Assembly (NCBI GenBank): GCA_022821775.1
Contig: JAJECY010000247.1
Span: forward strand, 2,368-66,367
Direction: 5' to 3'
Source of the DNA: Acidobacteriota bacterium
GTDB taxonomy: Bacteria; Acidobacteriota; Terriglobia; Versatilivoradales; Versatilivoraceae
DNA: 64,000 bases
Shown: positions 7,165 to 52,397 of the stretch, piece after piece
Position numbering within the stretch: the stretch's first letter is position 1
How the letters are laid out: every line of letters starts with the position of its first letter
Made by a program: the position numbers and the translations under genes
Notes under the pieces: generated by a model
Database searches by the model: none
Told to the model about the DNA's origin: nothing
What the model saw: the letters and a program-made list of their open reading frames with translations, nothing else

Positions 7165-7713
7165 ATGAAGCACAGCAACCAACCAATGATTCGCATGCTT
7201 CTGATTGCCCTCGCCGGAACGGTCCTGCTCTGGTGGGTCCCGACCCCCTCGGACTGGAGTCGGCTTTCGGCCGGACTGCAGGCTGCCAGGGCAGCGATGG
7301 GAGCCGAGTCGGAAGTGCGCCCGCGGCCCGCTTACCCGCCGGAAAAGGTGGTGCGCATCCAGATCGAGGCTCTGGGGAACAATGACCGGCCCCACACGGA
7401 TGCCGGAATCGAGATCACCTTCCGTTTCGCCTCGCCGGCCAACAGGAAGGTCACCGGTCCCCTGGCGCGTTTCATCGAGATGGTGCACAACCCGGCTTAC
7501 CGGCCCATGCTCAATCATCGCGGGGCCCGCTATGGTAAACTCAAGCGGGAGGGGAATCACGCCTCCCAGACGGTGATTCTGAAGTCCAGCGACGACGGCC
7601 GGGTGGGCTATCTCTTCCAGTTGTCCCGGCAGACCGAAGCTCCCTACAAGGACTGCTGGATGACCGACAGCGTGATGCGCTTCGACGTTCGAGAGGATTA
7701 CCGGCAGGTCTGA
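7165..7713 (+). CDS. hypothetical protein (possibly DUF4864-like)
   Basis: ATG at 7165 (MKHSNQPMIRMLLIALAGTVLLW, signal/TM). Conserved-looking core YPPEKVVRIQIEALGNND...IEITFRFASP. Family name is from memory and is uncertain. Confidence 0.5.
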   Translation: MKHSNQPMIRMLLIALAGTVLLWWVPTPSDWSRLSAGLQAARAAMGAESEVRPRPAYPPEKVVRIQIEALGNNDRPHTDAGIEITFRFASPANRKVTGPLARFIEMVHNPAYRPMLNHRGARYGKLKREGNHASQTVILKSSDDGRVGYLFQLSRQTEAPYKDCWMTDSVMRFDVREDYRQV

Positions 7714-7737
7714 TCTCGGCTCCAAGCGCTGCCTCAA

Positions 7738-10404: not shown

Positions 10405-10464
10405 GAGTCCTTGTTAAACCCGGCCTAGGGCTGGTACCATCTCGGGTACAAGGAGCCAATTTCA

Positions 10465-20454: not shown

Positions 20455-21879
20455 TCACGCCATGACTTTTTGGGCGACCACGCCGTGGACATCGGTCAGG
20501 CGGAAGTCGCGGCCGCCGTGGCGGTAGGTCAGGGCTTCGTGATCCAGGCCGAGCAGGTGGAGGATGGTGGCATGCAGGTCGTGGATGTGCATGCGGTCCT
20601 CCACGGCGTGGTAGCCGAATTCGTCGGTGGCCCCGTAGATGGATCCCGGCTTGACCCCGCCGCCGGCCATCCACATGGTGTATCCGTAGGGGTTGTGGTC
20701 GCGGCCGTCGTGCTGGGCAAAGGGCGTGCGTCCGAACTCGCCTCCCCACACCACCAGCGTATCCTGCAACAGCCCGCGGGCCTTGAGGTCGGTCAACAGT
20801 CCGGCGATGGGCGTGTCCACCTCGCGGGCGTTCTGGGCGTGCAGCCGAGCCAGGTCGCTATGCTGGTCCCACTTGTAGCTGTGCCAGCAGCGCACCACCC
20901 GAACACCTTTCTCCACCAGTCTGCGGGCCAGCAGCAACTGCCAGCCGTAGTCATGGGTGCGCTTGTCGTCCAGACCGTAGAGCTTGCGGGTGGCTTCCGT
21001 TTCCCCCTTGATATCCAGGATCTCCGGGGCGTCCATCTGCATGCGGAAGGCCAGCTCGAACGATTGAATGCGAGCCTCCAGCTTGGGATCGTATTCGTTG
21101 TCCAGGGCGTTGCGCCGGTTGATCTTCTGCAGCATCTCCAGCTCGTAGCGCTGCTGCTCCGAGGTCAGGTTGCCGCTGGTCAGGTGCTCGATGGGGTTGT
21201 CCTGGATGTCCGGCACCTTGACGGTGTCGTTGCCGATGGGAGTCCCCTGATAGGCGCCCGGCAGAAAGCCGGAATGCCAGTTCCTGGCCCCGCCGTGGTA
21301 GTAGGAGGGCTTGATTTCAATGTAACCGGGCAGGTTCTGGTTCTCGGTTCCCAGGCCGTAGAAGATCCAGGAACCCATGCTGGGCAGGGTGAAGTTGAGC
21401 GTTCCGGTGTTGAGCTGGAGCAGGGCTGCCCCATGGTCCACGCCCTCGCCCACCATGGAGCGAATCACGCAGAGCTCGTCGGCGTGGGCTCCCACCTGTC
21501 GAAAGAGATCGCTGACCGGAATGCCGCTCTCACCATAGCAGCGGAAGGCGAAGGGCGACTTCATCAGTCCGCCCAGGTCCTCGGTAGAGAACTGGAGCGA
21601 CAGCTTGAAGGGGATGGGCTTGCCGTGGTCCTTCTCCAGCCGGGGCTTGGGGTCGAAGGTGTCGACCTGGGAAGGGCCGCCGTGCATGAACACGAAGATG
21701 ACCCGCTTGGCCCGGGGACTGAAGTGGGGAAGCCTGGGAGCGAGCGGATTGTGAGGCGCGGAGCCGGCCAGCAGGCCCGAGTCCTGAGCCAGCAGAGCCT
21801 GCAGTCCCAGGGCTCCGAATCCGCAGGCCGTTCGGCGCAGCATCGCCCGCCGCGAAATGGGTCGGGATGGCAGATTCAT
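20455..21879 (-). CDS. DUF1501 domain protein (TAT signal)
   Basis: ATG at 21879 gives MNLPSRPISRRAMLRRTACGFGALGL (twin-arginine). Conserved DUF1501 blocks (FMHGGPSQVDTFDPKP, WGGEFGRTP, GRDHNPYGYT). Confidence 0.9.
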   Translation of the reverse strand: MNLPSRPISRRAMLRRTACGFGALGLQALLAQDSGLLAGSAPHNPLAPRLPHFSPRAKRVIFVFMHGGPSQVDTFDPKPRLEKDHGKPIPFKLSLQFSTEDLGGLMKSPFAFRCYGESGIPVSDLFRQVGAHADELCVIRSMVGEGVDHGAALLQLNTGTLNFTLPSMGSWIFYGLGTENQNLPGYIEIKPSYYHGGARNWHSGFLPGAYQGTPIGNDTVKVPDIQDNPIEHLTSGNLTSEQQRYELEMLQKINRRNALDNEYDPKLEARIQSFELAFRMQMDAPEILDIKGETEATRKLYGLDDKRTHDYGWQLLLARRLVEKGVRVVRCWHSYKWDQHSDLARLHAQNAREVDTPIAGLLTDLKARGLLQDTLVVWGGEFGRTPFAQHDGRDHNPYGYTMWMAGGGVKPGSIYGATDEFGYHAVEDRMHIHDLHATILHLLGLDHEALTYRHGGRDFRLTDVHGVVAQKVMA

Positions 21880-21886
21880 GGTTCCC

Positions 21887-24697
21887 TCAGTTGACAAAGT
21901 TGAACTCGTTGGAGGTCATCAGAATCCGGCAGAGGCTCTGCCAGGCGTCCAGGCGGGAGTCGCCGTCCTTCCCCGAACCGGCCGGATAGTTCCGCAAGTA
22001 GGCGAGGGACTCCTCCACCTCCCGGGGCGTGGGCTGCCGGGTCAGGGTGATGAGATAGGCTCTGCGGACACGCCCGGAGTCCTCCTCATCGGCCGCCGTC
22101 AAATGCTTGGCCAGGGAGCGCGAGCGATCGGCCACGTTCTCGCTGTTCATCATGTAGAGCGCCTGGGTGGCGACGTTGCTCTCGGTCCTCCTTGCCGAGC
22201 TCGAGGAGCTGTTGGCGAAGTCGAACAGCTTCATCACGCCGGGAATCTTGTTGCGGATGACCGGAACGTAGAGGCTGCGCCGGCGGGTTTCGTTGGGATG
22301 AAAGGCCTGTTCCGGACCCTTCTGGGCATAGTCCATCTTCCGGGAGGCCAGCGTGCCGCCCAGGGTCAGGTCCAGGGAACCGTCCAGCGCCAGGAAGGAA
22401 TCCCGCATTTCTTCCACCGAGAGCCGGCGGCGGCGCGCTCGGGACCATAGCCGATTGTCCAGGTCCGACTCCCTGGTCCCGGGGGAGGCCTGGCTGCTCT
22501 GCTGCCAGGTGCTGGACAGCAGCAGCAACCGGTGCATGGCCTTGAGGGACCATCCGCTCTCGACCAATCGGCGCGCCAGGTAATCCATCAACCGCGGATG
22601 GGTGGGTCTCTCGCCGGTGGTGCCGTAGTTGTTGGGAGTGCGCACCAGGCCCTCGCCGAAGTGCCACTGCCAGATGCGGTTGACCATCACCCGGCTGGTC
22701 AGGGGATGGTCTGCTCGGGTCAGCCATTCGGCCAGCTCCCTGCGCCCGCTGCCCTGAGTGATGGGCGCCTGCCGGCTTCCGGCCAGCACCACCGGGAACT
22801 GCTTGGCCACCGGCTCACCCGGAGTCTGGTAGCTGCCGCGGACGAACACCTTCTGATCGACGGGTTCCCCCTCGGCCACGGCGGACGCCAGGGGCGGCTC
22901 GGGAGGCGAGGACTCCTCCAGACGCTCGACCTCTTTTCTCAGTTCGGCGATGCGGTCCCGGGTCTCCTTGGGCAGCAGCTCTTCCCTTTCCTCTTCCTGA
23001 ATCCCGAAGGGGCCGCTGTCCGCCTTGGTCCCCTCGGCCTTGGGAGGAGGACTGATCACCGAGTTGAAAAAGCGACCCTCCACGGTGATGAACTCGTCAA
23101 AGAAGTGCGGTTTCTTGCGGGGAGCCTTGCCCTCCCGGACCGCCTGTTCCACCTTCTGATTCCATTGCCGCAGGCGCTGGTGCCACTCTCCGGACAACCT
23201 GTCGAACAGATCCTGGTATTCCCCAGCCACCCTGGCGAGCTCGGAGGACTCGGCCCGGTGCCACTTCTCCAGGTAGGGACGAAAGGCGTTGCCCGGTTGG
23301 AGGTATTCGATCCAGCGCTGCAGCAGCTTCGGGTCCAGATCCCCCGCGTCCGCCACCTGCTTCAGGGACTCGCCTTGCAGGTAAACACGCCGGGCCGCCA
23401 GCATGTATTCGGCCAGCAGGGGATAGAGCTTTTCTTCGAGATTCCCGGCGACTCCTGTCAGCACCAGCGACTCGATCAGCGACTCCCGCCCCTTGATCTT
23501 GTCCTGATGGCTCTGGTAGCGCTGATGGACCTCCTTGGGAACCAGCGGCTCGAAGTAGAACTTGGACACGAAGGGCGGCTTCTTGTCGGGCGGTATGAGG
23601 ACGCCGAAGCTGCGGGTGCTGGCGAAGATGGAAGCCAGGGAGTAGTAGTCCTTGGTCGAAATCGGGTCGAACTTGTGGTCGTGGCAGCGAGCGCAGGCGA
23701 TGGTCAGTCCCAGAAAGGCCTTGGAGAGGGTGTCGATCTGCTCGTCCACCAGGTCGTAGACCATCTTGGTCTTGTCCTGCTGGGCGATGGCGCGGGGGCC
23801 GATCGCCAGAAACCCGGTCCCCAGCAGGGCCCGAACGTTGGGATGCCCCGGCCGGCCGGAGGGATAGAGGTCGCCGGCGATCTGGTCCTTCACGAAGCGA
23901 TCGTAGGGAAGGTCCCGATTGAAGCTGTCGACCACATAGTCCCGGTAGCGCCAGGCATAGGGCATGGTGATGTCTTCGTCCAGGCCGCTGGAATCGGCAT
24001 AGCGGGCGACGTCCAGCCAGTGGCGGCCCCAGCGTTCCCCGTAGCGGGGCGAGGCCAGCAGGCGGTCCACCAGGCGGGCAAAGGCCCCGGGAGCCTTGTC
24101 GCCGAGAAACTGCTCGATTTCCTCCTCCGTGGGCGGCAGGCCGTGCAGGTCGAACTTGGCCCGGCGGAGCAGCGTCAGCTTGCCGGCGCGGGGAGCCGGA
24201 TCCAGGCCCTTTTCCTCCAGTTTGCGCAGCACGAAGGCATCCACCGGCGTCCGAACCCAGCCCGGATCGCGCACTTCGGGCGCCTCGGGGTCGCCCAGGG
24301 CCTGAAACGACCACCAGGTGGAAATACCGTTGGAACCGTGAGGGTTTTCTTCCCAGTGAGCGCCCGCCTGGATCCATTCTCTCAGGACCTCCACTTCCTC
24401 CGCCGAGAGAGCGCCGCCCACCGGCATCTTCAACTCTCCAGTCTGGAGAACGGCCCGGTAGAGCAGGCTCTCTTCCGGATGCCCGGGAACAATTGCGGGA
24501 CCGCTGTCGCCGCCCTTCAGCAGAGTCTCCCGCTGGCGGAGATCCAGGCCCGAGATGCGCGTCTCCCCGTGGCAGGTCAGGCAATGCTGCTGCAGGACAG
24601 ACCGCGCTTTTTCAGGCAGCGGGGCCTCGGCCGACAGTCCCTGGACCGGGGCGCCGGACAAAATGAAGACAAGGATGGGAAGGGCTCTCGGATTCAA
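21887..24697 (-). CDS. PSCyt1 / DUF1549 / DUF1553 domain protein
   Basis: Signal peptide, CLTCHG haem motif, and RYGERWGRHWLDVARYADS (DUF1549). Collinear with the other two PSCyt proteins in the window. Immediately upstream of its DUF1501 partner. Confidence 0.9.
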   Translation of the reverse strand: MNPRALPILVFILSGAPVQGLSAEAPLPEKARSVLQQHCLTCHGETRISGLDLRQRETLLKGGDSGPAIVPGHPEESLLYRAVLQTGELKMPVGGALSAEEVEVLREWIQAGAHWEENPHGSNGISTWWSFQALGDPEAPEVRDPGWVRTPVDAFVLRKLEEKGLDPAPRAGKLTLLRRAKFDLHGLPPTEEEIEQFLGDKAPGAFARLVDRLLASPRYGERWGRHWLDVARYADSSGLDEDITMPYAWRYRDYVVDSFNRDLPYDRFVKDQIAGDLYPSGRPGHPNVRALLGTGFLAIGPRAIAQQDKTKMVYDLVDEQIDTLSKAFLGLTIACARCHDHKFDPISTKDYYSLASIFASTRSFGVLIPPDKKPPFVSKFYFEPLVPKEVHQRYQSHQDKIKGRESLIESLVLTGVAGNLEEKLYPLLAEYMLAARRVYLQGESLKQVADAGDLDPKLLQRWIEYLQPGNAFRPYLEKWHRAESSELARVAGEYQDLFDRLSGEWHQRLRQWNQKVEQAVREGKAPRKKPHFFDEFITVEGRFFNSVISPPPKAEGTKADSGPFGIQEEEREELLPKETRDRIAELRKEVERLEESSPPEPPLASAVAEGEPVDQKVFVRGSYQTPGEPVAKQFPVVLAGSRQAPITQGSGRRELAEWLTRADHPLTSRVMVNRIWQWHFGEGLVRTPNNYGTTGERPTHPRLMDYLARRLVESGWSLKAMHRLLLLSSTWQQSSQASPGTRESDLDNRLWSRARRRRLSVEEMRDSFLALDGSLDLTLGGTLASRKMDYAQKGPEQAFHPNETRRRSLYVPVIRNKIPGVMKLFDFANSSSSSARRTESNVATQALYMMNSENVADRSRSLAKHLTAADEEDSGRVRRAYLITLTRQPTPREVEESLAYLRNYPAGSGKDGDSRLDAWQSLCRILMTSNEFNFVN

Positions 24698-24813: not shown

Positions 24814-25104
24814 ATGACTACCGACCAAGAGTCCGAACCCCGGCAATGGGTGATGGTATTCGAGACCACCGACGTCGCTCTTCTGATGGTGGTCAAGTCG
24901 GTGCTGCAGGATGCCGGCTTCGACTTTACCGTGCAGGGCGAGGAAGCCTCGACGTTGTTGCCGCTGGGTCCCTTCAGAGGGGGCCTGAACCACCACGGCT
25001 TCGGAGCCAGAATCCACGTCCCCGAAGACCAGGCCGCGGATGCCGAAGAAGTACTGGCCGTGCTGGACAACGAGCTGACGGACATTGACGGCAGCGAAAC
25101 GTGA
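24814..25104 (+). CDS. DUF2007-like putative signal-transducing small protein
   Basis: ATG at 24814 (MTTDQESEPRQWVMVFETTDVALLMVVKSVLQDAGFDFTVQGEE...), about 97 aa. The pattern is typical of DUF2007. Name is from memory. Confidence 0.5.
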   Translation: MTTDQESEPRQWVMVFETTDVALLMVVKSVLQDAGFDFTVQGEEASTLLPLGPFRGGLNHHGFGARIHVPEDQAADAEEVLAVLDNELTDIDGSET

Positions 25105-25240
25105 CCCGTAACCGGAATCCAGGGCGCCCGGACCGCTCGCGGCTGTCGGCGCCGACCCGCTCGAGCAGGGTCCCGATGGCCGGTGGAGCCATTGGCGGGG
25201 GCCGCTTCCACCGGCGCCCGGGAACCGAGGAGGTGCTCCT

Positions 25241-26344
25241 TTGATCGATTGGACTCAAATCGGCGAGTTCGCGACTCGCTATGCGGGTGCAGGCGCCAAA
25301 ATCGCCGGCCTGTTTCTGATGGCCTGGATCGCCTCTCGCATGATTCATCGCTACATCCCCAGGGTGCGCATGCGGCTGGTCAAAGTCATGCAGGCCCGCC
25401 GGCACGAGCCCGATCTCGAACTGGACAAACGGGCGGCCACGCTGGGGGGCATTTTCCGCAAGACGGTAGTGGTGTCGATCTGGGTGGTGGTTCTCATGAT
25501 GGCGCTGGAGGAAGCCGGCTTCAACGTGGGGCCGTTGCTGGCTGGCGCCGGGGTGGCGGGGCTGGCCGTCGGCTTCGGGGCTCAAAACCTGGTGCGGGAC
25601 GTGATTTCGGGACTGTTCATGCTGCTCGAGAACCAGGTCCGGGTCAACGACGTGGCCATCATCAACGGCACCGGGGGCCTGGTGGAGCAGATCAACCTGA
25701 GGACCACCGTGCTGCGAAGCCTGGACGGCACCGTTCACATCTTTCCCAACGGCACCATCAACACCTTGTCCAACATGACGCAAGAATACTCCTACTACGT
25801 CTTTAACATCGGCGTGGCCTACAAGGAGGATACCGACCATGTCTCGGCGGTGGTCAAGGAGCTGGCCGACGAAATGATGCAGGAGGAAACCTATCGATCG
25901 TTCATTCTGGCCCCGCTGGAAGTGATGGGGGTGGATGAGTTTGCCGACTCGGCCGTCATGATCAAGGCCCGCATCAGGACCGCGCCCATCAAGCAGTGGA
26001 TGGTGGGCCGGGAGATGAATCGCCGCATCAAGAAGAGGTTCGACGAGCTGGGCATCGAGATTCCCTTCCCCCACCGCTCACTCTACTTCGGCGAGGCCAG
26101 CAAGGCCTTCGCCACCCGCTCGGCCGGCGCCGATCCCGGCGAGATCAAGGCCATGATCCGCGAAGTGCTGCAGGAAAAGGGCTTGCAGTCCGGCGAGGTA
26201 GAGCCTCCAGCTCCGACAAGGGTGACTCCTGCCGCCCCGAAGCCGAAAGCTCGCCCGCAGCCGGCCAAGCCCGCCGCCGAACGACGCCCGCGCCGGCCGG
26301 CTCCCCTGGGAGAAAGCACGGCTGACTCCGAGGGTTACGAATGA
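25241..26344 (+). CDS. mechanosensitive ion channel (MscS) family protein
   Basis: TM helices plus a conserved MscS beta domain (NLVRDVISGLFMLLENQVRVNDVAI...VHIFPNGTI), with a low-complexity Pro/Ala/Lys C-terminal tail. Confidence 0.85.
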   Translation: MIDWTQIGEFATRYAGAGAKIAGLFLMAWIASRMIHRYIPRVRMRLVKVMQARRHEPDLELDKRAATLGGIFRKTVVVSIWVVVLMMALEEAGFNVGPLLAGAGVAGLAVGFGAQNLVRDVISGLFMLLENQVRVNDVAIINGTGGLVEQINLRTTVLRSLDGTVHIFPNGTINTLSNMTQEYSYYVFNIGVAYKEDTDHVSAVVKELADEMMQEETYRSFILAPLEVMGVDEFADSAVMIKARIRTAPIKQWMVGREMNRRIKKRFDELGIEIPFPHRSLYFGEASKAFATRSAGADPGEIKAMIREVLQEKGLQSGEVEPPAPTRVTPAAPKPKARPQPAKPAAERRPRRPAPLGESTADSEGYE

Positions 26345-27528
26345 TGGACGGCCAGCCCACAAACCGGGTAGTAACATTGGCCGACCGACCGAACTCATGC
26401 CTGTCCGCTTCAGGACTGCGGAGCCGTATTACCCACTCTTTGCGCAAACAAGGATTCCGGTTCCGATCGGGCGTTCTTGTCCCCCCAGATATCAAGGATA
26501 AGAGCAAGCTCAGGGTGCTTCATCGGGAAGCCGTCAAGCACAACGTGAGTCGCAGCCGACGTGGGCTCGAACGGTGCGAAGACCGGCTGCTTTCGTATAT
26601 CGCGTCTGGAGAAGACGTCATTCCCGACAGAATACGCCCCCGACTCGTCTTGGTACAGCCAGGCTCCGAGGACGAACTGCTGTTCCGGTACGCACGCCTG
26701 CACTGGAGCATCCCGGTGTCCGCCGGCTACGGTAGACGCTTGAGATTCGTAGTCTATGACGAATCGAATGGCAAATTGATCGGCATCTTCGGATTGGGAG
26801 ACCCCATCTTCGGCCTTGGCCCCCGCGACCGATGGATAGGATGGAGTCACAAAGCCAAGAAGAATCGGCTACAGTGCGTCATGGACCTCTTTGTGCTGGG
26901 AGCCATACCGCCCTATTCCCATCTTCTTTGCGGTAAGCTCGTCGCTCTGTTGGCGACTAGCCGAACCGTCCGGGAGGCGTTTCGACGCAAATATGGCGGC
27001 CGGCCTTCATATATCGGCCGCAAGCCATTGGACGGTCGCCTTGCCCTACTGACCACAACCTCTGCACTTGGTCGATCATCCTTGTACAACCGACTCCGAT
27101 ACAAGGATGATCTTGTCTTTCAAAGTGCGGGCTTCACACGCGGTTCGGGGGATTTTCACTTCAGCAATGGTTTTTTTGGCGACCTACGTCAGTTTGCGCT
27201 CAAACATTGCAATGCAACGGCTAAGCATACGCTGTGGGGTAAGGGTTTCCGAAATCGACGGGAGCTTGTGAGAAAGACGTTGCCACTGCTAGGTCTCCCG
27301 AAGGAGTTTCTATATCACGGTGTAAAGCGCGAAATATTCTTGGCACCGCTGGCCTCCAACACCGCAGCCTTTCTTTGCGGTGACGACCAACGACTCCAAT
27401 ACCGTGACCTTACCGAGGAAGACGTTTTCAGATGGTTCCGGGACCGATGGCTCCTGCCGCGAGCGGAACGTGACAAGAGCTACTTGGGCTTCGATTCTAA
27501 GGATTACCGGCTCTGGAGGTCGGAGTGA
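26341..27528 (+). CDS. uncharacterised 395-aa protein, first gene of the low-GC NurA/HerA island
   Basis: No motif I can assign. The start ATG overlaps the MscS stop (ATGA at 26341-26344). The stop overlaps the GTG start of the next gene (GTGA at 27525-27528). GC is lower than the flanks. Confidence 0.6.
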   Translation: MMDGQPTNRVVTLADRPNSCLSASGLRSRITHSLRKQGFRFRSGVLVPPDIKDKSKLRVLHREAVKHNVSRSRRGLERCEDRLLSYIASGEDVIPDRIRPRLVLVQPGSEDELLFRYARLHWSIPVSAGYGRRLRFVVYDESNGKLIGIFGLGDPIFGLGPRDRWIGWSHKAKKNRLQCVMDLFVLGAIPPYSHLLCGKLVALLATSRTVREAFRRKYGGRPSYIGRKPLDGRLALLTTTSALGRSSLYNRLRYKDDLVFQSAGFTRGSGDFHFSNGFFGDLRQFALKHCNATAKHTLWGKGFRNRRELVRKTLPLLGLPKEFLYHGVKREIFLAPLASNTAAFLCGDDQRLQYRDLTEEDVFRWFRDRWLLPRAERDKSYLGFDSKDYRLWRSE

Positions 27529-28214
27529 CTCAGAGGCCTTTGACTCACGATCAAACTCCATTCGCCGATCTCCCTGCAGCACTGGTTGACGAGGTCCTGG
27601 GTCAGACCTCCGCCGTCGCACAGGATCTTCTGACCTCTTTCAAAGAGGTCAGGAAGGATCGTGAAACACTTCGTGCCGAGCTTGCGAACTCCGGCTTGGT
27701 AGTAGCCGAATCCTCGCTGGGTTACCCGCCTCTGCCAACGACGTGCGGTGCGGACGGTTCGTATGCGATTGAGCGACTTCTGACGACGGATCTCGCTGCC
27801 GCAGCAGCGGTTGCAGTCGAGGGACTCACTCCCCCTTCTGAAAAGCGACACTGGGAGCTTCCCCGTCATCGGAGCTTCGTTGCCGCCGAGCCCCACGTCG
27901 AAGACACAGCCACCGTCCTTCGCGCGGTAATGCTGGGAGAAGAGTTGCACTTGGTGACGGCTGCCCCGCATGACCTATTGATGCTGGACGGTACGTTCAC
28001 CCTGCCAATCATTTATTTCAATCAGGCGCTCAACAAAGCCCCTGAAACTACCCAGCTACGCTGCGCCAAGAAGTTCCTCGATAACTGTTCGACCTACCTC
28101 GAAGCCTACCGGACCACCTTACAATCGGAACGTTCGGATAAGCACTTCGTGGCGCTTCCGAAGTATTCGACCCGGCGGGAAATCGGCAGTGAATTGGGTT
28201 GGCCCGAGAACTAA
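27525..28214 (+). CDS. nurA: NurA-like 5'-3' nuclease, N-terminal part (ends at an in-frame TAA)
   Basis: NurA motifs are present: GADGS (the DGS aspartate motif), then LGEELHL...LMLDGTF (Glu + second Asp-Gly motif). Ends at TAA 28212-28214. The reading frame continues in-frame into the next ORF. Confidence 0.6.
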   Translation: MTQRPLTHDQTPFADLPAALVDEVLGQTSAVAQDLLTSFKEVRKDRETLRAELANSGLVVAESSLGYPPLPTTCGADGSYAIERLLTTDLAAAAAVAVEGLTPPSEKRHWELPRHRSFVAAEPHVEDTATVLRAVMLGEELHLVTAAPHDLLMLDGTFTLPIIYFNQALNKAPETTQLRCAKKFLDNCSTYLEAYRTTLQSERSDKHFVALPKYSTRREIGSELGWPEN

Positions 28215-28226
28215 GACGACCGTGGG

Positions 28227-28703
28227 ATGCTCACCATGCTTCTGAACCCCGGCGAATTGACAAAACCACGACTACTGGAACACCCACGGGACAGCGAGGG
28301 GAATACCACTTGGCACCTGAATACGCAGCGACTGCCCGACAAGTCGAAGCGCCAGGCTGCCGAGCTGGCGTCTGAGATTGTCTCGGCACTCGGGGACCTT
28401 CGAGTCTTCTACTACAAGCCCCAGGACTGGCTACCTGCACTTAGGATCGAAGTTTCCGCTAGCGTTGCCTCAAATGCTCACCGCTTGGCGACGGTGGTAC
28501 ATGGCATCAAGCACCAGACGGCTACCCCATCGATGCTGGAGCCCTATCCGATCTACCTTGCCGATCGCACCGTAAAGGCACTCGCACGAGCGATTCCTGC
28601 TTTCAGGCAGGTGACGACTCAACGAATTTCGGAGCAGTACGAAGGGGACATCGGCGAGGTGTTCTTCGCAATGCACGGTTATCGCAGCGAGATCGGGAGA
28701 TGA
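28227..28703 (+). CDS. nurA: NurA-like nuclease, C-terminal part (same frame as 27525..28214)
   Basis: Contains the NurA C-terminal-type motif EPYPIYLADRTVKALARA. Same frame (frame 0) as the upstream fragment, separated by one TAA plus 4 codons. The stop overlaps the HerA start (ATGA at 28700-28703). Confidence 0.55.
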   Translation: MLTMLLNPGELTKPRLLEHPRDSEGNTTWHLNTQRLPDKSKRQAAELASEIVSALGDLRVFYYKPQDWLPALRIEVSASVASNAHRLATVVHGIKHQTATPSMLEPYPIYLADRTVKALARAIPAFRQVTTQRISEQYEGDIGEVFFAMHGYRSEIGR

Positions 28704-30487
28704 CAATGACTGACGATTCAGCAACGAATCTAGACAGGCTCATCGATCAGACTGAGCGGTTGGGTGTCGTCGGCTCACCTTCGTCTACTGCCCAGCTTGC
28801 ACTCGACATTCTCGGTTCCGCCGTCACCCGCAAGCTGGTCGGGGAACTCGCGCTCTTCCGCTTCTTGCAGGACACGAGTCCACACTATGCGCTCGGTCAG
28901 ATTACAGAAATTCAACTCCGCAATATCTGGCACGAAGACCCCACCATGCGCAGCCTTATCCGACAGCGCGGCCGGGTCGACGCCGTGAGTGAGCGTCAAG
29001 ATACCCACCTCGGCCAGATGATTATCAGCGCGGTCTTCCAAGAAGGAGGTTCAGCGGGCTACGAACCGAGCATCCTTGGAACCGTGCCGTCAACTGGAAC
29101 CCGAATCCATCTCGTGACGGATCCGGTGCTCGATGAACTGCTCCGTCCGTATCGGGAGCAGATCTTTTATCTTGGACACGTGTACGGCTCCAAGCCGAAG
29201 CTGCCGCTCTGGTTTAAACACTTCGACAAGGGACCGGACGGCGCCGGCGAAGCCTATCACCTCGGTATCTTCGGCAAGACTGGCTCGGGCAAGTCGGTTC
29301 TGGCCAAGATGATCCTTTTGGCCTATGCCCGATATACCAAGATGGCTCTCCTAGTGATTGATCCACAGGGAGAGTTTGCAAAAGATATGAAATCGAACGC
29401 ACCAAGCGGCGAGTTTCGACTTCCCTTAAAGGATCTCATCCGGTCTCAGGGCAAGAAAGCACACGTTCTAACTGTTCGAAAACTCGTTCTTGATCGATGG
29501 GACTTGTTCCGACAGATCCTCGCGGAGTCGAAGTTCTTTCGAGAACTTCAGGTAATGACTCAAGACAAAGTCGAAACTGCATGTGATCAGTTCACTGAAG
29601 CAATGCGAAAAACATCGGGAATCAAGCTTGCCACGCTGCATGAATCAGATGTTTTCAAGAAGGCATGGAAACTTCTTACACAGGATAAGCTTCGTAACAA
29701 GATTTATGCGCGGGAGGGAGCTGCCGCGGAACGTTTCAGAGATGCTGTAAACGAAGCTAATCCGGATGAAATTTATCAAGGCATCTGGTTGCCTGTAGCG
29801 CGGCTGTTTCAAGAGGACCGCGAAGCTGGACGCCGCAAAGTGGAGGATGCCCTCAGGTGGTTGCTGAAATTCAAAGAACATACCAATCGGCCCGTTCTTG
29901 TCGTCGATGTTTCCAAGGAGCAAGCACAAGGGCTACTTTGGAATGACACGATTCAGTCGCTGGTCATCAAACGTCTTCTGGAAGGTGTCACCCACATTGC
30001 TGAAGATATGTACCGGGAAGGAGAGAGTCTCAACGCCCTGGTCGTCATCGACGAAGCCCACCGCTTGGCCCCGGGGCCTCGTGATCTATCGCGGGACGAC
30101 GATGCGGCACGCGGCGTGCGCTCAGTGTTGATCGACGCGGCCCGGACGACGCGAAAGTATGGACTGGGCTGGCTCTTCATCAGCCAGACGCTCTCGAGCC
30201 TGCACCCGGAGATCCTCCAGCAGCTCCGTATCTTCTTCTTCGGCTTCGGACTTGGACTCGGACAAGAGTTCCAGTCGCTTCGGCAGCTTGTGGGCTCCTC
30301 TGGTACGGCACTCGACTTGTATCAATTGTTTCGCGATCCACACTCAGCTTTCGATCCCAGGAGCCGACAATACTCCTTCATGACCATTGGGCCGGTGAGT
30401 CCGTTATCATTTTCCGGAAGCCCGCTCTTTCTGAATGCTTTCAACACGGTAGACGCCTTCTTGAATGCGAACGAACTTGGCAGGTGA
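28700..30487 (+). CDS. herA: HerA-like / DUF87-type P-loop ATPase (FtsK-HerA superfamily translocase)
   Basis: Walker A GIFGKTGSGKS and Walker B ALVVIDEAHRLAP. Size about 595 aa. Immediately downstream of and translationally coupled to the NurA fragments. Lowest GC in the window. Confidence 0.8.
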   Translation: MTMTDDSATNLDRLIDQTERLGVVGSPSSTAQLALDILGSAVTRKLVGELALFRFLQDTSPHYALGQITEIQLRNIWHEDPTMRSLIRQRGRVDAVSERQDTHLGQMIISAVFQEGGSAGYEPSILGTVPSTGTRIHLVTDPVLDELLRPYREQIFYLGHVYGSKPKLPLWFKHFDKGPDGAGEAYHLGIFGKTGSGKSVLAKMILLAYARYTKMALLVIDPQGEFAKDMKSNAPSGEFRLPLKDLIRSQGKKAHVLTVRKLVLDRWDLFRQILAESKFFRELQVMTQDKVETACDQFTEAMRKTSGIKLATLHESDVFKKAWKLLTQDKLRNKIYAREGAAAERFRDAVNEANPDEIYQGIWLPVARLFQEDREAGRRKVEDALRWLLKFKEHTNRPVLVVDVSKEQAQGLLWNDTIQSLVIKRLLEGVTHIAEDMYREGESLNALVVIDEAHRLAPGPRDLSRDDDAARGVRSVLIDAARTTRKYGLGWLFISQTLSSLHPEILQQLRIFFFGFGLGLGQEFQSLRQLVGSSGTALDLYQLFRDPHSAFDPRSRQYSFMTIGPVSPLSFSGSPLFLNAFNTVDAFLNANELGR

Positions 30488-30615
30488 CAAAATGGGTGCA
30501 GTCGTTTGTTCCCAGGGACAAAGAAACCGGGGGGACGAGTATAGGACGTTGTTGAATAGCCGGAAAAACATCCTCGACTTCCGGTTTTGGAGGCACTTGG
30601 GTTTAGAGGCGACCA

Positions 30616-32352
30616 ATGACCTATAGCGAAGCAGAAATCAGGGTTCAACTCAGCCTCGGCGAGGACAGCCGTTGGGAATTCAAGCAAGTCGAATTCGCCG
30701 GCAACTACCCAAGGAATCCGAGGCGGGACGATTTGGCGGATGAGATCGCAGCCTTCGCCAATGCGGATGGCGGTATGCTGCTCTGCGGCGTCACAGACGC
30801 AGGCGAGGTGCAGGGCATGTCTCGTGAGCAGATTGTCGAATTGGATTCTGTTCTGGTCGAGGTGAGTTCTGACGCCATCAAACCAGCCGTTCGCATCCGC
30901 ACCCATCACAGGCACCTCGATGGCAAGCGGTTGCTACTGGTTGAAGTGCCGGCCGGCGAATCGCTGTACGAAAGCCCAGGGGGAAGCTATGTTCGGGTGG
31001 GTGGCACAAAGCGAAAGATGAACAGCGACGAGCAGCTTCGCTTGGCCCAACGAAGAGGACAGGCGCGTTTCCGCTCGTTCGACGAGCAACCCCTCCCAAG
31101 TACCGGATTCAGAACTCTGGACGAATCGCTCTGGAAGCCGCTGTTAACGGCCGAAGGTGCGGTACATCCCGAGTCGGCGCTCGGGAAGCTGGCGCTCCTG
31201 GCGCCCGACCAGGCGGGAATTCCGCGCTCGACGGTAGCCGGCGTGTTGTTGTGCACCCGAAATCCCGAGCAGCACCTCCCCAACGCGTGTATCACGGCGA
31301 CCCGATACCGGGGAAAGGATCGAGCTTCCGGCCAGATCGATGCACAGGAGATCACCGGCCCGCTAGACCGCCAGATCGCCTCCGCAGTGGCCTTCGCCAT
31401 AAGGAACATGCACGTTGCTGCACGCAAGGAGCCGGCCCGCGTGGACCTGCCCCAGTACAGCGACAAGGCACTGTTCGAGGCCATCGTCAATGCCGTGGCG
31501 CATCGCGACTATTCGATGCATGCCAGCAAGATTCGCCTCTCCATGTTCGAAGACCGCCTGGAAATTCAGTCGCCTGGCTCGCTGCCAAACAACTTGACCG
31601 TCGACAGCATGGCAACGCGGCAAGCAACTCGCAACCAGGCCTTGACCTCGGTGCTGGGACGAATGCACGTCGGGGGCGTCCAAGGCTCGGAGGACAGGCA
31701 GTATTTCATGGAGCGGCGCGGAGACGGAGTTCCCATTATCCTGCGCGAAACCAAGCAACTCAGCGGCAAACTGCCGGAATATCGCCTGATCGATGCTTCG
31801 GAAGTCTGCCTGATCATCCCTGCGGCAGTGCAGGAGCGGAGCCCTGCCCGGACTGTCATCACCGTGCGGTCCGGCGGCCAACCCTTGCCTGGCGCCGACC
31901 TGTTGGCTCTTTTTTCGAACAATACCTGGAAGCGCGCGACCACGGACGAGTCCGGGGAGGCGGCCGTCGACCTGCACACGACGCATCTCCCCATGAGGGT
32001 GTTCGCTGCCGCTCCCGGCTACGCTGCACACCTGGAACGTGATTGGGTCCCCAGCAGTCGAGCGCTCACGATAGAAGTCAAGGAACTGCAGGACGGTGGC
32101 AGTGTCATCTTTCCCGAGGCGACGGGATGCCTTCCAGGCCTCAAGGGCAGGCTCAATCCCATACGCGACACCCATGACCGAACCTATCTCTACGCGTCCA
32201 ACGTTGCCATCAACGAGGGCGAGCAGCAACCGGTCTACTTCATCCCCGGTGAAGACCTGCGGTTAACCGATGCCGACGGAACCGCGCTGCTCGTGCGCAT
32301 TGTCGATATCGCAGGCCGCTCGACTCTTTTGGAATATCGTCCATACTCCTGA
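30616..32352 (+). CDS. AlbA_2 (Schlafen-like DNA-binding) + HATPase_c_4 domain protein with extra C-terminal domain
   Basis: N-terminus: RWEFKQVEF...ADEIAAFANADGGMLLCGVTDAGEVQGM (AlbA_2-type). Middle: ALFEAIVNAVAHRDYSMHASKIRLSMFEDRLEIQSPGSLP (HATPase_c_4-type). About 200 aa of unassigned, more GC-rich C-terminal sequence. Confidence 0.75.
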   Translation: MTYSEAEIRVQLSLGEDSRWEFKQVEFAGNYPRNPRRDDLADEIAAFANADGGMLLCGVTDAGEVQGMSREQIVELDSVLVEVSSDAIKPAVRIRTHHRHLDGKRLLLVEVPAGESLYESPGGSYVRVGGTKRKMNSDEQLRLAQRRGQARFRSFDEQPLPSTGFRTLDESLWKPLLTAEGAVHPESALGKLALLAPDQAGIPRSTVAGVLLCTRNPEQHLPNACITATRYRGKDRASGQIDAQEITGPLDRQIASAVAFAIRNMHVAARKEPARVDLPQYSDKALFEAIVNAVAHRDYSMHASKIRLSMFEDRLEIQSPGSLPNNLTVDSMATRQATRNQALTSVLGRMHVGGVQGSEDRQYFMERRGDGVPIILRETKQLSGKLPEYRLIDASEVCLIIPAAVQERSPARTVITVRSGGQPLPGADLLALFSNNTWKRATTDESGEAAVDLHTTHLPMRVFAAAPGYAAHLERDWVPSSRALTIEVKELQDGGSVIFPEATGCLPGLKGRLNPIRDTHDRTYLYASNVAINEGEQQPVYFIPGEDLRLTDADGTALLVRIVDIAGRSTLLEYRPYS

Positions 32353-33476
32353 TGTCACGATTGGAAAACATCCTGAAGCAGAAGGTGAGGGAGGGCGAGC
32401 TCTGGGAGCGGCTGGATGAGAAACGCATCCGCTGCACCGCCTGCGGGCACTGTTGTCCCATTCCCGAGGGCCGCCCGGGCGTCTGCCGGGTTCGCTTCAA
32501 CCGGGGCGGCAAGTTGATGGTTCCCTGGGGCTACACCGGAGGGGTGCAGTGCGACCCCATCGAAAAGAAGCCCTTCTTTCATGCCTACCCCGGAGCGCTG
32601 GCCTACAGCTTCGGCATGCTGGGCTGCGACCTGCACTGCGCCTACTGTCAGAACTGGGTGACCTCCCAGGCCTTGCGAGACCCGGCGGCAGTGGCGCCCG
32701 CTCGCAGGACCACCCCCCAGGCCTTGGCCCGGGCGGCGGTGAGGCAGCGGGCGCGGGTGATCGTGAGCACCTACAACGAGCCGCTGATCACCAGCGAGTG
32801 GGCGGTGGCGGTGTTCCGGGAGGCCCGCAAGGAGGGCCTGGTCACCGGGTTCGTCTCCAACGGCAACGGCACTCCGGAGGTGCTGGAATACCTCAACCCC
32901 TGGGTGGACCTCTACAAGGTGGATCTGAAGAGTTTCCGCGATCGCCAGTACCGCAGATTGGGGGGACGGCTGCAGCCGATCCTGGAGACCATTCGCAGCC
33001 TGTTCCGACAAGGGTTCTGGCTCGAGATCGTGACGCTGCTGATTCCGGGATTCAACGATTCAGAAGATGAAGTCCGGCGGCTGGCGGCCTTCCTGGCGGG
33101 CGTGTCTCCCGACATTCCCTGGCACGTGACCGCCTTTCACCAGGACTACAAGATGACCGATCCCGACAATACCAGCGCCGAGATGCTGACGGCGGCGGCC
33201 GAGATCGGCCGGCAGGAGGGATTGCGCTACGTCTATGCCGGCAACCGGCCGGGCCGGGTGGGGGACCTGGAGAACACCCGCTGCCCGGATTGCCAAGCCC
33301 TGCTGATCGAGCGCTTCGGCTACCTGATTATGGGGTACCACCTGACTCCCCAGGGGGACTGTCCAAGCTGCGGTCTGGCCATTCCCGGGCGCTGGGCCCA
33401 ATCCTTCCAGGGCCAGGTGGCCGCCCATCCCTTCCTGCCCCGACAGGGGATCAACCCGCCAACGGTTTCTTCCTGA
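32352..33476 (+). CDS. AmmeMemoRadiSam-system-type radical SAM enzyme (AmrS-like)
   Basis: N-terminal Cys cluster CTACGHCCPIPEGRPGVCRVR, then a radical-SAM CDLHCAYCQNW (CxxxCxxC) motif. Collinear with AmrS-type proteins. Confidence 0.82.
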   Translation: MSRLENILKQKVREGELWERLDEKRIRCTACGHCCPIPEGRPGVCRVRFNRGGKLMVPWGYTGGVQCDPIEKKPFFHAYPGALAYSFGMLGCDLHCAYCQNWVTSQALRDPAAVAPARRTTPQALARAAVRQRARVIVSTYNEPLITSEWAVAVFREARKEGLVTGFVSNGNGTPEVLEYLNPWVDLYKVDLKSFRDRQYRRLGGRLQPILETIRSLFRQGFWLEIVTLLIPGFNDSEDEVRRLAAFLAGVSPDIPWHVTAFHQDYKMTDPDNTSAEMLTAAAEIGRQEGLRYVYAGNRPGRVGDLENTRCPDCQALLIERFGYLIMGYHLTPQGDCPSCGLAIPGRWAQSFQGQVAAHPFLPRQGINPPTVSS

Positions 33477-33498
33477 AGCCTCCTTCCGACCCGGATTG

Positions 33499-36400
33499 CT
33501 ACTCGAGTTCCAGAGGAACAAATCCCGCCTCGCGGGCCAGTTGGTTGAAGGAGGCCGCCTCGCCTTGGCACAGCTCCCGCAGCCGGGCGATCTCAACGTC
33601 GATCTGGGCGCAGATCTCATCGAAGACCTCGTAGGCCTGCCTGGGCGGGGCGGCGTCGGCAATGCCGACCACGGCCACCAGGCCCCCCAGCTTGGCGTTC
33701 AGGCGGTTGGGGTGGCGCAGCCGGTCGAAGGGGGTCTTGTCCTTGGTCTGGATCAAGGCTTTTTCGATGGAATCCAGTTGATCCCTCAGGGACTTGGCCT
33801 TATCGGAGAGGGGACTCGACCCTTCCGGGTCGCCCTGGCCCGGCTTCTCGGCGCGGCGGGACCACTCGGCCAGTTGCTCTTGCAGGCAGCGGGTGAGGTT
33901 GATGGCCCGGTTGGTCTCCGAAAGCTTGTCCCGAATTCTGGTCCACAACTCGAACTGCGCCTGAAAGTCCTCCGGCGTGGCCTCCACCCGGGGGTCCTTG
34001 AGGATCTCGAAGCTCTCGGTGCATGTCCGACCGCCCGCGCTCAGACGGACCCCGTAGGCCCCGGGAGGGGCCAACGGACCGTTCCCGCTCTTCTCCCGAG
34101 TGCCGAAGAGGGTGGATTGGTCCTTGTCCCGTTCCTCCACTTTCTCGGCGTCGGGGTAGTGCATGTCCCAGACGAAGCGATTCAGCCCGGGACGAGCCGT
34201 GACGTAACGGTCCGCCTTGGGGGAGGCTTCCGCGCCCTCGGCTTCTTCCGGCTCCTGCGGCCTGCTGGTGAAGGTCTTGATCTCCCGGCCGCCGGCGTCC
34301 AGAAAGGTCAACGAGATGGGCTGGCCGGGCGCCTCGGCCAGCAGGTAGTAGACGATGACTCCCGGGGGCGGGTTCTGGCCGGCGTCCAGAAAGCGGCGCA
34401 CGGGTTCGCCCTCGGGGGTCTCATCCTGGTAGTAGCAGGCGTTGCCCCCCAGGCCCAACATGTAGTTCTTGCCCTTGTCGGCAAACATGTTGACGCTCCA
34501 GTTCAGCCGGGTGCGGTAGGTGGGACGGGGAGGGAACAGGCCGGCGGCGGCCCCGGCGGACTCGGGGTCCAACCGGCGCAAGGGGGTCAGGTCGTCCAGG
34601 ATCCAGAAGGAACGCCCGTGGGTGCCGGCCACCAGGTCGGAGTCCTTGATCTTGAGGTCGTAGACCGGCACCACCGGGAGATTGCTCCGCAGCGGCTGCC
34701 AGTGTTCACCGTCGTCGAAGGTGACGAAGACCCCCGTCTCGGTGCCGACGAAGAGCAGGCCCGGACGGACCGGGTCGGCTCTCACCACCCGGGTGATCTG
34801 GTCCTGGGGAAAGTCTCCGGCGATGCCGCGCCAGCTCCGGCCGTAGTCCTCGGTCTTGTAGAGGTAGGGGCGGTAGTCGTCCAGCTTGTAGCGGGTGGCG
34901 GAGACATAGGCCGTGGCCGGGTCGTGGGGGGACACCTCCAGGCAACCCACGTAGGACCACTCCGGCAGTTCGGGCGGAGTGATGTTGTCCCAGTGGGCGC
35001 CGCCGTCTCGGGAGAGATGGACCAGACCGTCGTCGGTGCCCGCCCAGAAAACGCCGGGCCGGTGCTTCGATTCCACGAAGGTGGAGAGGGTGGCGTACCC
35101 TTCGGCGCCGCTGGCGTCCTTGGTGACGGGCCCGCCGGAAGCCTCCAGCTTTCCCGGGTCGTTGCGGGAGAGGTCCGGACTGATGGCTTCCCAACTGCCG
35201 CCGCCGTCCAGGCTGCGGAAGAGGATGTTTCCGCCGGCGTAGAGCACCTTGGGGTCGTGGGGCGAAATGGCGATGGGATAGGTCCAGGCGAAGCGGTATT
35301 TGAGGTCCTTGGGCGCCCAGCCCGTCGACTCCTCGGGCCAGACGTTGACCAGGCGGATCTGCCCGGTCTTGCGATCGTAACGCTGCAACACGCCGTTGCC
35401 CCCCGGCGAGCTCCCTATCGCTCCTAGGTAGACGACGTCCGGGTTGTCGGGCTGGACGGCGATGAATCCGCTCTCTCCCGTGCCGGGGGAGTAGCAGTGA
35501 CTCCAGGCGATGGCGCCGTACTCGGTGGCGCTGGGAACGCAAATGGAGGCGTTGTCCTGCTGGGTGGCGTAGACCCGGTAGGGGTATTGGTTGTCGATAT
35601 CGATTCGGTAGAGCTGCGAGGTGAGCTGGTTGTAGATGGTCGACCAGCTCCGTCCGCCGTTGAAGGAGATGCAGGCGCCGCCGTCGTTCCCCTGAACCAG
35701 GTGGCGGGGGTCGCGCGGGTCGATCCACAGGTCGTGGTTGTCTCCATGGGGGGTGGTCACCTGCTCGAAGCGGCGGCCGCCGTCGGTGGACTTCCACATC
35801 TTGAGGTTGGTGACGTAGACGGTGTCGGCGTGGCAGGGGTCGGCGAAGACGTGGCAGTAGTACCAGGGCCGGTGGATCAGGTCGCGGTTGTCGCTGACCC
35901 GCTGCCACTGCTGTCCGCCGTCATCCGACCGGTAGAGGCCCTCCTGCTCCGACTCCACGATGGCCCAGACCCGGTCCGCCTGGGCCGGCGAGACGGCCAC
36001 GCCGATCTTGCCCTTGATTCCCTTGGGCAACCCCTCGTTGTTGCTGATCTCGGTCCAGGTGTCGCCGCCGTCGGTGGACTTGAAGAGGCCGCTGTCGGGT
36101 CCCCCGCTGGAGAGGGACCAGAAATTACGGTAGGTCTCCCAGATGGAAGCGTAGAGCAGGCGGGGGTTGTTGGGATCCATGGCCAGATCCACCGCACCGG
36201 CCTTGGGGCTGCGGTAGAGCACCTTCTCCCAGTTGCGGCCGCCGTCCCTGGAGCGGTAGACGCCCCGCTCCGGGTTGGAGCCGAAGGCGTGGCCCAGGGC
36301 CGCCACGTAGACCAGGTCGGGATCGTTGGGATGGACGCGGATCTCGCCGATATGGCGGGTCTCCTCCAGTCCCAGGTGGGTCCAGGTCTTGCCGGCGTCG

Positions 36401-50439: not shown

Positions 50440-50930
50440 CGATGGGACACCGCGTTTGCTCCCCACCGGCTCGACGGCGGGCTATGCACTCTCGCTACGC
50501 CGCGTTGGCCCCCCTCCGGCTCGAAGAGGGGCTTCGCCCTCTCGCCGACTCCCCCTCAAGGGGGGAGTGATTACAGTCGCTCCTGACGAGGCTTCAGTGA
50601 TTCCCCGCAGATCATTCCACCCCTCAATCCCCCCCCAAACGTCCCTTCAAACACTCGAGGATCACTCCCCCCTTGAGGGGGAGTCGCAGAAGCCCGAGCC
50701 GAATGGCGAAGGCTTCTGCGGTGGGGGGTTCGCACAAGGCGAGCCAACGGCGAGATCTTGTGCGCCGTCGCGGTCAGGCACCAGCCAAGTTAAAGGCGAG
50801 ATCTTGTGCGCCCTCGGGTTCGCACCAGCCAAGTTACAGGCGAAGGCCGATGAGGTGGGGGCGGAAAGCAGACCGCCGGCCAGTTTCGCATCGGCCCTCC
50901 CCCACCCCACAAGCCACCTATCGGACGTGA
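50440..50930. repeat. GC-rich intergenic repeat element, copy C, plus additional hairpin and two tandem ~45-bp repeats
   Basis: 50440-50580 is near-identical to copy A. 50655-50685 CACTCCCCCCTTGAGGGGGAGT is the inverse hairpin. 50745-50845 holds a two-copy tandem GGCGAGATCTTGTGCGCC...CACCAGCCAAGTTA(A/C)AG. Confidence 0.75.
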
Positions 50931-50945
50931 GCCCACAAGGAACCT

Positions 50946-52388: not shown

Positions 52389-52397
52389 GTCAGTCCT

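What the first reader, a model, noticed from the sequence alone, without database searches (positions are those of the whole stretch)
28100..28330. NurA-like nuclease split by a single in-frame TAA between its catalytic motifs
27525..28214 and 28227..28703 are in the same frame. After TAA (28212-28214) the frame reads straight on (…ELGWPEN*DDRGMLTMLL…). The upstream piece carries the DGS and E/DG motifs. The downstream piece carries the C-terminal YP-YLADR-type motif. Together they make about 391 aa, a normal NurA length. This is either a recent nonsense mutation, a sequencing or assembly error, programmed readthrough, or a genuinely two-chain NurA.
Basis: seen in the sequence. Interest (0 to 1): 0.55.

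Follow-up and report, generated by a model that had tools for sequence, protein, structure and literature searches.

The report
Recent nonsense mutation in NurA nuclease gene
A single C-to-A change has turned a tyrosine codon into a stop codon in the middle of an otherwise intact NurA-type nuclease gene, so this is an ordinary, very recent gene knock-out in one strain and not a two-part enzyme or a recoding signal.

Summary
A TAA at 28212-28214 sits in frame inside a 392-codon NurA-like gene, the middle gene of a tightly coupled DruA(DUF4338)-NurA-HerA operon.

It is a strain-specific nonsense mutation (Tyr230 TAC to TAA, C>A at 28214).
- All 120 closest database homologues, all 80 species-level genome loci and 90 of the 150 best-scoring representatives in the 50%-identity library are single-chain proteins of about 365-425 aa. 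The other 60 are fragments with no common break point.
- A strain with about 99% identical flanks, found in two other samples, carries an intact gene. It differs at only 2 of 1179 nt, one of which is the stop-creating base.
- The downstream piece shows no decay. The partner genes druA and herA and 10 other neighbouring genes are intact.
- Two other public assemblies carry the same TAA allele at 100% identity, so it is not one assembler's artefact.
- TAA ends other real genes in the window.
- The invariant DDR motif just after the stop lies in neither ORF, so reassembly from two chains is unlikely.

Interest in the split itself is low. The widely transferred DruA-NurA-HerA cassette is more noteworthy.

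The parts
26341..27528 (+). druA (DUF4338 / DruA-family protein, 395 aa), first gene of the cassette; its TGA stop overlaps the nurA GTG start (GTGA)
   Evidence: Pfam DruA PF14236 E 4e-109; PADLOC DruA E 2.6e-108. It differs by 1 aa from the copy in the intact-allele strain L086.
27525..28214 (+). N-terminal fragment of the nurA-like gene (229 codons plus the premature TAA). It carries Asp77 (DGS), the conserved glutamates E99, E122 and E140, Asp155 (LDG) and Lys213.
   Evidence: D77 aligns with P. furiosus NurA Asp51. Conservation is shown.
28212..28214 (+). Premature stop codon TAA, ancestral TAC (Tyr230); the mutated base is 28214 (C>A)
   Evidence: Homologues have Y in 111 of 120 and H in 9 of 120. 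Syntenic loci L001-L003 and the 99%-identical strain L086/L087 have TAC.
28215..28226 (+). Four in-frame codons (Asp-Asp-Arg-Gly) that now lie in no ORF; D231, D232 and R233 are invariant across 37 relatives at 49-86% identity
   Evidence: There is no in-frame ATG, GTG or TTG before 28227.
28227..28703 (+). C-terminal remnant of nurA (158 codons from the first in-frame ATG). It carries the conserved EPYPIYLADR loop and the C-terminal helices. Its TGA overlaps the herA ATG (ATGA).
   Evidence: It is still under a purifying-selection signature relative to homologues (21 synonymous to 6 nonsynonymous, and 42 to 9). It differs by only 1 nt from the intact allele.
28700..30487 (+). herA-like ATPase (FtsK-HerA superfamily, 593-595 aa), third gene of the cassette, intact
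   Evidence: Pfam DUF87/HerA central domain E 1.9e-11; PADLOC HerA and mad8 models. 100% aa identity to the intact-allele strain.

Best explanation
The feature is a very recent, strain-specific nonsense mutation. A C-to-A transversion at 28214 changed Tyr230 (TAC) to TAA in a normal single-chain NurA-family nuclease gene. That gene is the middle gene of a translationally coupled druA-nurA-herA operon, probably a horizontally mobile DNA-degrading defence-type cassette. Translation stops after residue 229. The N-terminal product keeps the Asp-Glu-Asp part of the RNase H-like active site. It lacks the invariant DDR motif, two beta strands, the conserved EPYPxYLADR loop and the C-terminal helices. 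By analogy with archaeal NurA, that loop supplies an active-site tyrosine and the HerA-binding patch, and those helices clamp the dimer. The nuclease is therefore most likely null in this strain, and herA may be under-expressed because its start is coupled to the nurA stop. Shown here: the mutation, its recency, its uniqueness, and the single-domain NurA fold. Inferred: loss of activity, polarity on herA, and the defence role of the cassette.
Against: No reads could be inspected. The three assemblies that share the TAA probably derive from the same sample, so they exclude an assembler artefact but not a systematic read error or a minority variant chosen as consensus. Loss of function was not measured. 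An ATG 12 nt after the stop could allow re-initiation, so a C-terminal fragment might be made. The equivalence of the EPYPxYLADR loop with Sso NurA Tyr298/I295/F300 rests on position in the fold and was not checked by residue-level superposition.
Confidence: 0.88

Rival explanations
1. Sequencing or consensus error: the true sequence is TAC and the gene is intact in this organism.
For: It is a single-base difference from the intact allele. The three assemblies with TAA (window/NCBI, Logan SRR16351678, ENA ERZ23491298 of SAMN22237337) may all come from the same reads. The allele was not found in any other sample in the 15-billion-protein collection or in JGI metagenomes.
Against: Three different assembly pipelines give 100% identical sequence over 2.4-11 kb. 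None of the 12 other genes compared with the sister strain has a disruption. The site is not a homopolymer or repeat. Substitution errors in a consensus at normal coverage are rare (general knowledge).
Confidence: 0.06
2. A functional two-chain NurA: termination at TAA is followed by re-initiation at ATG 28227, and the 229-aa and 158-aa fragments reassemble into an active nuclease.
For: The break falls in a surface loop between two helices of the model. An in-frame ATG lies 12 nt after the stop. The C piece shows no decay yet.
Against: No homologue in any collection is split there. The invariant Asp231-Asp232-Arg233 would be absent from both chains. The lack of decay is explained equally well by the mutation being very recent, at 2 nt from the intact allele. 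No Shine-Dalgarno-like sequence is evident before 28227 (by eye).
Confidence: 0.03
3. Programmed stop-codon readthrough or TAA reassignment gives a full-length protein.
For: The frame continues uninterrupted after the stop.
Against: Relatives, including a 99%-identical strain, have a sense codon (TAC) at this position, so no stop is conserved. TAA terminates bona fide genes elsewhere in the window: a TonB-dependent receptor, a chromate transporter, an Nramp protein and an esterase. No in-frame TAA occurs in the 12 other genes compared. No suppressor tRNA, or any tRNA, is present in the window. UAA followed by G is an efficient terminator context in bacteria (general knowledge).
Confidence: 0.02
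4. A naturally split gene: homologues are two conserved genes broken at the same point.
For: None was found. A few database fragments end at profile positions 222-239.
Against: 120 of 120 close homologues, 80 of 80 genome loci and 90 of 150 diverse representatives are full length. Fragment end points are scattered between 100 and 303, with only one complementary C-terminal fragment starting near 239.
Confidence: 0.01

Closest known systems
Archaeal and bacterial NurA nuclease of the HerA-NurA DNA end-resection complex (S. solfataricus 2YGK, P. furiosus 3TAI, T. kodakarensis 9X1L, D. radiodurans 7F6D)
   Different: Sequence identity to solved NurAs is only 11-14%. It is not linked to mre11/rad50. 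It is instead always preceded by a DruA/DUF4338 gene and spreads by horizontal transfer across many phyla. In this window the gene is interrupted by a stop codon.
TdpAB (HerA-like TdpA plus NurA-like TdpB), the restriction part of the tdpABC phosphorothioate-based defence system
   Different: The third gene here is DruA/DUF4338 (described as GNAT-like in PMC10853773), not the TdpC phosphorothioation enzyme. The structural similarity to TdpB is weaker than to archaeal NurA. No functional test was done.
Druantia type I (DruABCDE)
   Same: The first gene is a strong DruA/DUF4338 match (Pfam 365 bits, PADLOC 361 bits).
   Different: DruB, DruC, DruD and the DruE helicase are not among the neighbours scanned. 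DruA is followed by NurA and HerA instead. This is therefore not Druantia.
Nonsense-mutated (pseudogenised) genes in defence islands
   Same: It is a single-base premature stop in an otherwise intact gene, private to one strain, with intact alleles in the same species. Another genome has the same cassette inactivated in a different way, by an IS in herA.
   Different: Nothing unusual; this is the ordinary case.

Membership tests
NurA nuclease family (Pfam PF09376) | Profile match to the NurA domain above the curated threshold | tested here: met
   The joined product scores 26.6 bits and the intact allele P0124 scores 27.9 bits, against a cut-off of 21, covering model positions 2-253 of 254. 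35 of 37 diverse relatives match, best E 8.7e-13. The separate pieces fail: the N piece scores 18.2 bits (below 21) and the C piece has no hit.
NurA nuclease family (Pfam PF09376) | RNase H-like/PIWI fold with solved NurA structures as nearest neighbours | tested here: met
NurA nuclease family (Pfam PF09376) | Catalytic Asp-Glu-Asp (plus a C-terminal His/Asp or Tyr) of the RNase H-like active site | tested here: inconclusive
   Asp77 (DGS) aligns with Pfu NurA Asp51 in the only PDB sequence hit (3TAI, E 0.0028). D77, G78 and E99 are at least 90% conserved across 87 sequences down to 23% identity. D155 and D347 are invariant in the 37-sequence set. Which glutamate (E99, E122 or E140) and which C-terminal residue are catalytic was not settled by residue-level superposition.
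NurA nuclease family (Pfam PF09376) | Adjacent, co-oriented HerA-family ATPase gene | tested here: met
   The herA-like gene at 28700-30487 has a start overlapping the nurA stop. HerA is detected downstream in 79 of 80 genome loci; the one exception is a contig that ends inside nurA.
NurA nuclease family (Pfam PF09376) | Whole fold encoded as one uninterrupted polypeptide (needed for a functional member) | tested here: not met
   In this window an in-frame TAA at 28212-28214 interrupts the gene. It is therefore a disrupted allele (pseudogene) of a NurA-family gene.
Naturally split (two-gene) NurA | The same break conserved in homologues | tested here: not met
   0 of 120, 0 of 80 and no recurrent junction among 150 representatives.
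Programmed readthrough / stop-codon reassignment | Stop codon conserved at the site in relatives; the stop codon not used as a terminator elsewhere | tested here: not met
   Relatives have TAC or a His codon there. TAA ends four Pfam-supported genes in the window. There are no other in-frame TAAs in the 12 genes compared.
Druantia type I | DruA together with DruB, DruC, DruD and the DruE helicase | tested here: not met
   Only DruA is present. The neighbours are MscS, NurA, HerA, a SLFN/AlbA_2-HATPase_c_4 protein and a radical SAM enzyme.

The most novel reading that the evidence does not exclude
The interrupted gene is the nuclease of a self-contained, horizontally mobile three-gene cassette, DruA(DUF4338)-NurA-HerA. 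I could not find this cassette described as a system. It may be an uncharacterised anti-phage or anti-plasmid defence module, working like TdpAB or HerA-NurA by ATP-driven threading and degradation of foreign DNA, with DruA as sensor or modifier. The window's strain would then be a natural nuclease-null mutant next to an isogenic wild-type strain. That pair would make a ready-made comparison. For the split itself, the only exotic reading left is a re-initiated two-chain enzyme, at about 3%.
Probability: 0.4. Interest if true: 0.5.

Novelty: already known. Interest (0 to 1): 0.12.

Why it matters
The split itself matters little. It is a textbook nonsense mutation and should be annotated as a disrupted nurA (pseudogene), not as two genes or a recoding event. 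It has some value as a clean example of very recent inactivation of a probable defence nuclease. The wild-type allele is 2 nt away in a 99%-identical strain, and a second, independent inactivation of the same cassette (an IS in herA) occurs in another genome. That fits the view that such cassettes are gained and lost quickly. The DruA-NurA-HerA cassette is the more interesting object. It is conserved as a unit in at least 15 phyla, at up to 86% protein identity between phyla, and is absent from the PADLOC models tried. It would be worth an experimental test.

Tried and rejected
- A profile search of solved structures by sequence using shallow alignments (A1, A2) found no NurA. Only the diverse alignment A3 reached P. 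furiosus NurA, weakly.
- The first AlphaFold run, with a shallow alignment, gave an unusable model (pLDDT 57). I discarded it and replaced it with the diverse-alignment model.
- PADLOC and NCBIfam gave no family for the NurA-like protein.
- A scan of JGI metagenome contigs for the exact 39-nt context with any base at 28214 found nothing, so no independent-sample confirmation of the TAA was obtained.
- The promoter and terminator scan of 25000-33700 gave nothing above shuffled expectation.
- Literature searches for DUF4338/DruA together with NurA or HerA found no description of the cassette.
- I considered TAA reassignment, a suppressor tRNA and a conserved split, and rejected each for the reasons given under the rival explanations.
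- I considered the five database fragments ending near positions 222-239 as a possible recurrent split. I rejected this because fragment end points are scattered overall and complementary C-terminal fragments are lacking. Their contigs could not be inspected.

Full report
**Observation.** ORF 27525..28214 (GTG start, 229 codons, TAA) and ORF 28227..28703 (ATG start, 158 codons, TGA) share one frame. Only TAA 28212-28214 interrupts that frame, and the read-through translation is ...ELGWPEN*DDRGMLTMLL.... The geometry alone is weak evidence. In this 63.6% GC window, two open stretches of at least 120 codons separated by a single stop occur 35 times across the six frames. Homology running across the junction makes this case real. 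The joined 392-residue product matches Pfam NurA (PF09376) end to end (model positions 2-253 of 254, 26.6 bits against a cut-off of 21). The N piece alone is below the cut-off (18.2 bits) and the C piece has no hit.

**Context.** The gene is the middle one of three tightly coupled genes.
- druA (26341-27528) is a DUF4338/DruA protein (Pfam E 4e-109), and its TGA overlaps the nurA GTG.
- nurA is the interrupted gene.
- The herA-like ATPase gene (28700-30487) has the DUF87/HerA central domain and hits PADLOC HerA and mad8 models. Its ATG overlaps the nurA TGA.
- Upstream is an MscS channel gene. Downstream are a SLFN/AlbA_2-HATPase_c_4 protein and an AmmeMemoRadiSam radical SAM enzyme.
- The nearest genome is a Candidatus Versatilivorator MAG (Acidobacteriota), syntenic at about 94% nucleotide identity.

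**Is the split conserved? No.**
- All 120 best hits among 5.8 billion clustered proteins are single chains of 372-418 aa covering 95-100% of the joined query, and 88 of them are exactly 392 aa.
- All 80 species-representative genome loci give one uninterrupted tblastn segment with no stop. These loci span Acidobacteriota, Gammaproteobacteria, Binatia, Latescibacterota, Gemmatimonadota, Chloroflexota, Planctomycetota, Bacillota and others, plus one Thermoproteota archaeon.
- An exhaustive profile search of 1.84 billion 50%-identity representatives found 504 relatives.
- Of the best 150 of those, 90 are full length (364-424 aa). The 60 fragments end at 100-303 or start at 50-275, with no complementary pile-up at 230.

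**What was there before the stop?** The aligned column holds Tyr in 111 and His in 9 of the 120 close homologues. In the more diverse genome set it holds Y, H, Q, F, S or R. Syntenic loci L001-L003 carry TAC.

Loci L086 (ENA ERZ23495370, a 107-kb scaffold) and L087 (Logan SRR18248214) give the decisive comparison. Their flanks are 98.7-99.1% identical to the window, and they carry an intact 392-aa gene. That gene differs from the window's at only two of 1179 nucleotides. One is 28214 (A here, C there, so TAA versus TAC). The other is 28395 (Asp versus Asn), which falls in a freely variable column. The event is therefore a single C>A transversion at the third codon position.

**How recent is it?**
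- Apart from the stop, the window's protein departs from residues conserved in at least 95% of homologues only at A75G, and the intact allele shares that change.
- The downstream piece differs from relatives mainly by synonymous changes: 21:6 against L001 and 42:9 against L002.
- The other 12 genes compared with L086 have no stops. druA differs by 1 aa and herA is identical.
- The gene has not begun to decay, and the assembly is not error-ridden.

**Error or real?** The two truncated products exist as called proteins in other public assemblies. A Logan contig of run SRR16351678 (L084, 2445 nt) and an ENA scaffold of SAMN22237337 (L085, 11156 nt) are both 100% identical to the window, TAA included. 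Together with the NCBI contig from which the window appears to derive, three assemblies agree, which rules out an assembler-specific artefact. They probably share the same reads, so read-level confirmation is still missing. A JGI metagenome scan for the site found nothing.

**Recoding?** This is unlikely.
- TAA terminates Pfam-supported genes elsewhere in the window: a TonB-dependent receptor, a chromate transporter, an Nramp protein and a BD-FAE esterase.
- No other in-frame TAA occurs in the compared genes.
- The window contains no tRNA gene.
- Relatives do not conserve the stop.

**Two-chain enzyme?** With a diverse 87-sequence alignment, AlphaFold gives a confident single-domain model (pLDDT 95.4, pTM 0.91). 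The shallow-alignment model was unusable.
- Residue 230 lies in a loop between helices 219-224 and 232-239, so the break is sterically mild.
- However, the next residues, Asp231-Asp232-Arg233, are invariant across relatives down to 49% identity. They lie in neither ORF, because the first in-frame start after the stop is ATG 28227 (Met235).
- The N piece keeps Asp77, which aligns with the catalytic Asp51 of P. furiosus NurA. It also keeps the conserved glutamates, Asp155 and Lys213.
- The C piece carries the conserved EPYPxYLADR loop preceding the last long helix.
- In solved NurAs the C-terminal region supplies essential elements. In P. furiosus these are His411 and a C-terminus directed towards the partner subunit's active-site cleft (PMC3300031). 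In S. solfataricus they are Tyr298, the I295/F300 HerA-binding patch and the dimer-clamping C-terminal helices (PMC3326311).
- By inference, the 229-aa product cannot be an active, HerA-coupled nuclease. herA expression may also suffer, because its start is coupled to the nurA stop.

**Conclusion on the finding.** This is a real, very recent, strain-private nonsense mutation (Y230*) that makes a null or severely crippled allele of a normal NurA-family gene (confidence about 0.88). The rivals are a consensus error (about 0.06), a re-initiated two-chain enzyme (about 0.03), readthrough (about 0.02) and a conserved split (refuted). As a phenomenon it is ordinary.

**Side observations.**
- The DruA-NurA-HerA trio is conserved as a unit: druA is detected upstream in 78 of the 80 genome loci, and herA downstream in all but one, a contig that ends inside nurA. 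NurA identity between phyla reaches 84-86%, which implies recent horizontal transfer.
- The cassette is not Druantia, because DruB-E are absent. The NurA has no PADLOC v2 model hit. I found no paper linking DUF4338/DruA with NurA.
- The nearest characterised defence analogue by fold is TdpAB of the tdpABC system.
- In a Gammaproteobacteria MAG (L005), the cassette's herA is split by an insertion carrying a DDE transposase. That is a second, independent inactivation.
- A 50%-identity clade carries an extra 765-aa pentapeptide-repeat gene between druA and nurA.
- The middle of herA has no nucleotide match to the 94%-identical genome, although its flanks do.

Noticed in passing
window 26341-30487; loci L004-L083: druA(DUF4338)-nurA-herA is conserved as a three-gene unit with overlapping stop and start codons: druA is detected upstream in 78 of 80 species-level genome loci and herA downstream in 79, across at least 15 phyla and one archaeon. 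NurA identity between phyla reaches 84-86%, which implies recent horizontal transfer. It is not Druantia (no DruB-E), the NurA has no PADLOC v2 hit, and I found no paper describing it. It may be an uncharacterised defence cassette.
   Followed up: partly
L005 7188-10168 (Gammaproteobacteria MAG OZ241870.1): In this genome the cassette's herA is split into residues 6-214 and 204-591 by a ~1.2-kb insertion. The insertion encodes a DDE_Tnp_1 / DDE_Tnp_1_assoc transposase on the opposite strand (7815-8975). This is an independent, insertional inactivation of the same cassette.
   Followed up: partly
L071 3675-5972 (also L068, L073): In the clade with about 50% identity, a 765-aa protein with pentapeptide repeats is encoded between druA and nurA, making a four-gene variant of the cassette.
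   Followed up: partly
window ~29376-29872 (inside herA): The middle of herA has no blastn match to the syntenic Versatilivorator genome (L002), and its 3' part is only 82% identical. Flanking genes are 94-96% identical. Overall HerA identity is 78% aa, against 92% for NurA and 95-97% for the neighbours. This points to a hypervariable or recombined segment.
   Followed up: no
window 30616-32352: A 578-aa SLFN/AlbA_2 + HATPase_c_4 protein lies directly downstream of herA. It matches a PADLOC model labelled pAgo (E 1.3e-18) and Argonaute-associated Aga models. It is conserved only in the Versatilivorator relatives, not with the cassette elsewhere.
   Followed up: no
window 27747-27749 (residue 75): Gly75 is two residues before the catalytic-motif Asp77 (TTCGADGS). 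119 of 120 homologues have Ala there. The intact allele of the sister strain shares the change, so it predates the stop.
   Followed up: partly
window 7700-11900 and 50900-55700: There are further paralogous PSCyt/PSD1 (DUF1553-type) and DUF1501 gene pairs, at 37-51% aa identity to the pair at 20458-24697. This is a multi-copy family often associated with Planctomycetota and Verrucomicrobiota, here in a genome whose nearest relative is an Acidobacteriota MAG.
   Followed up: no
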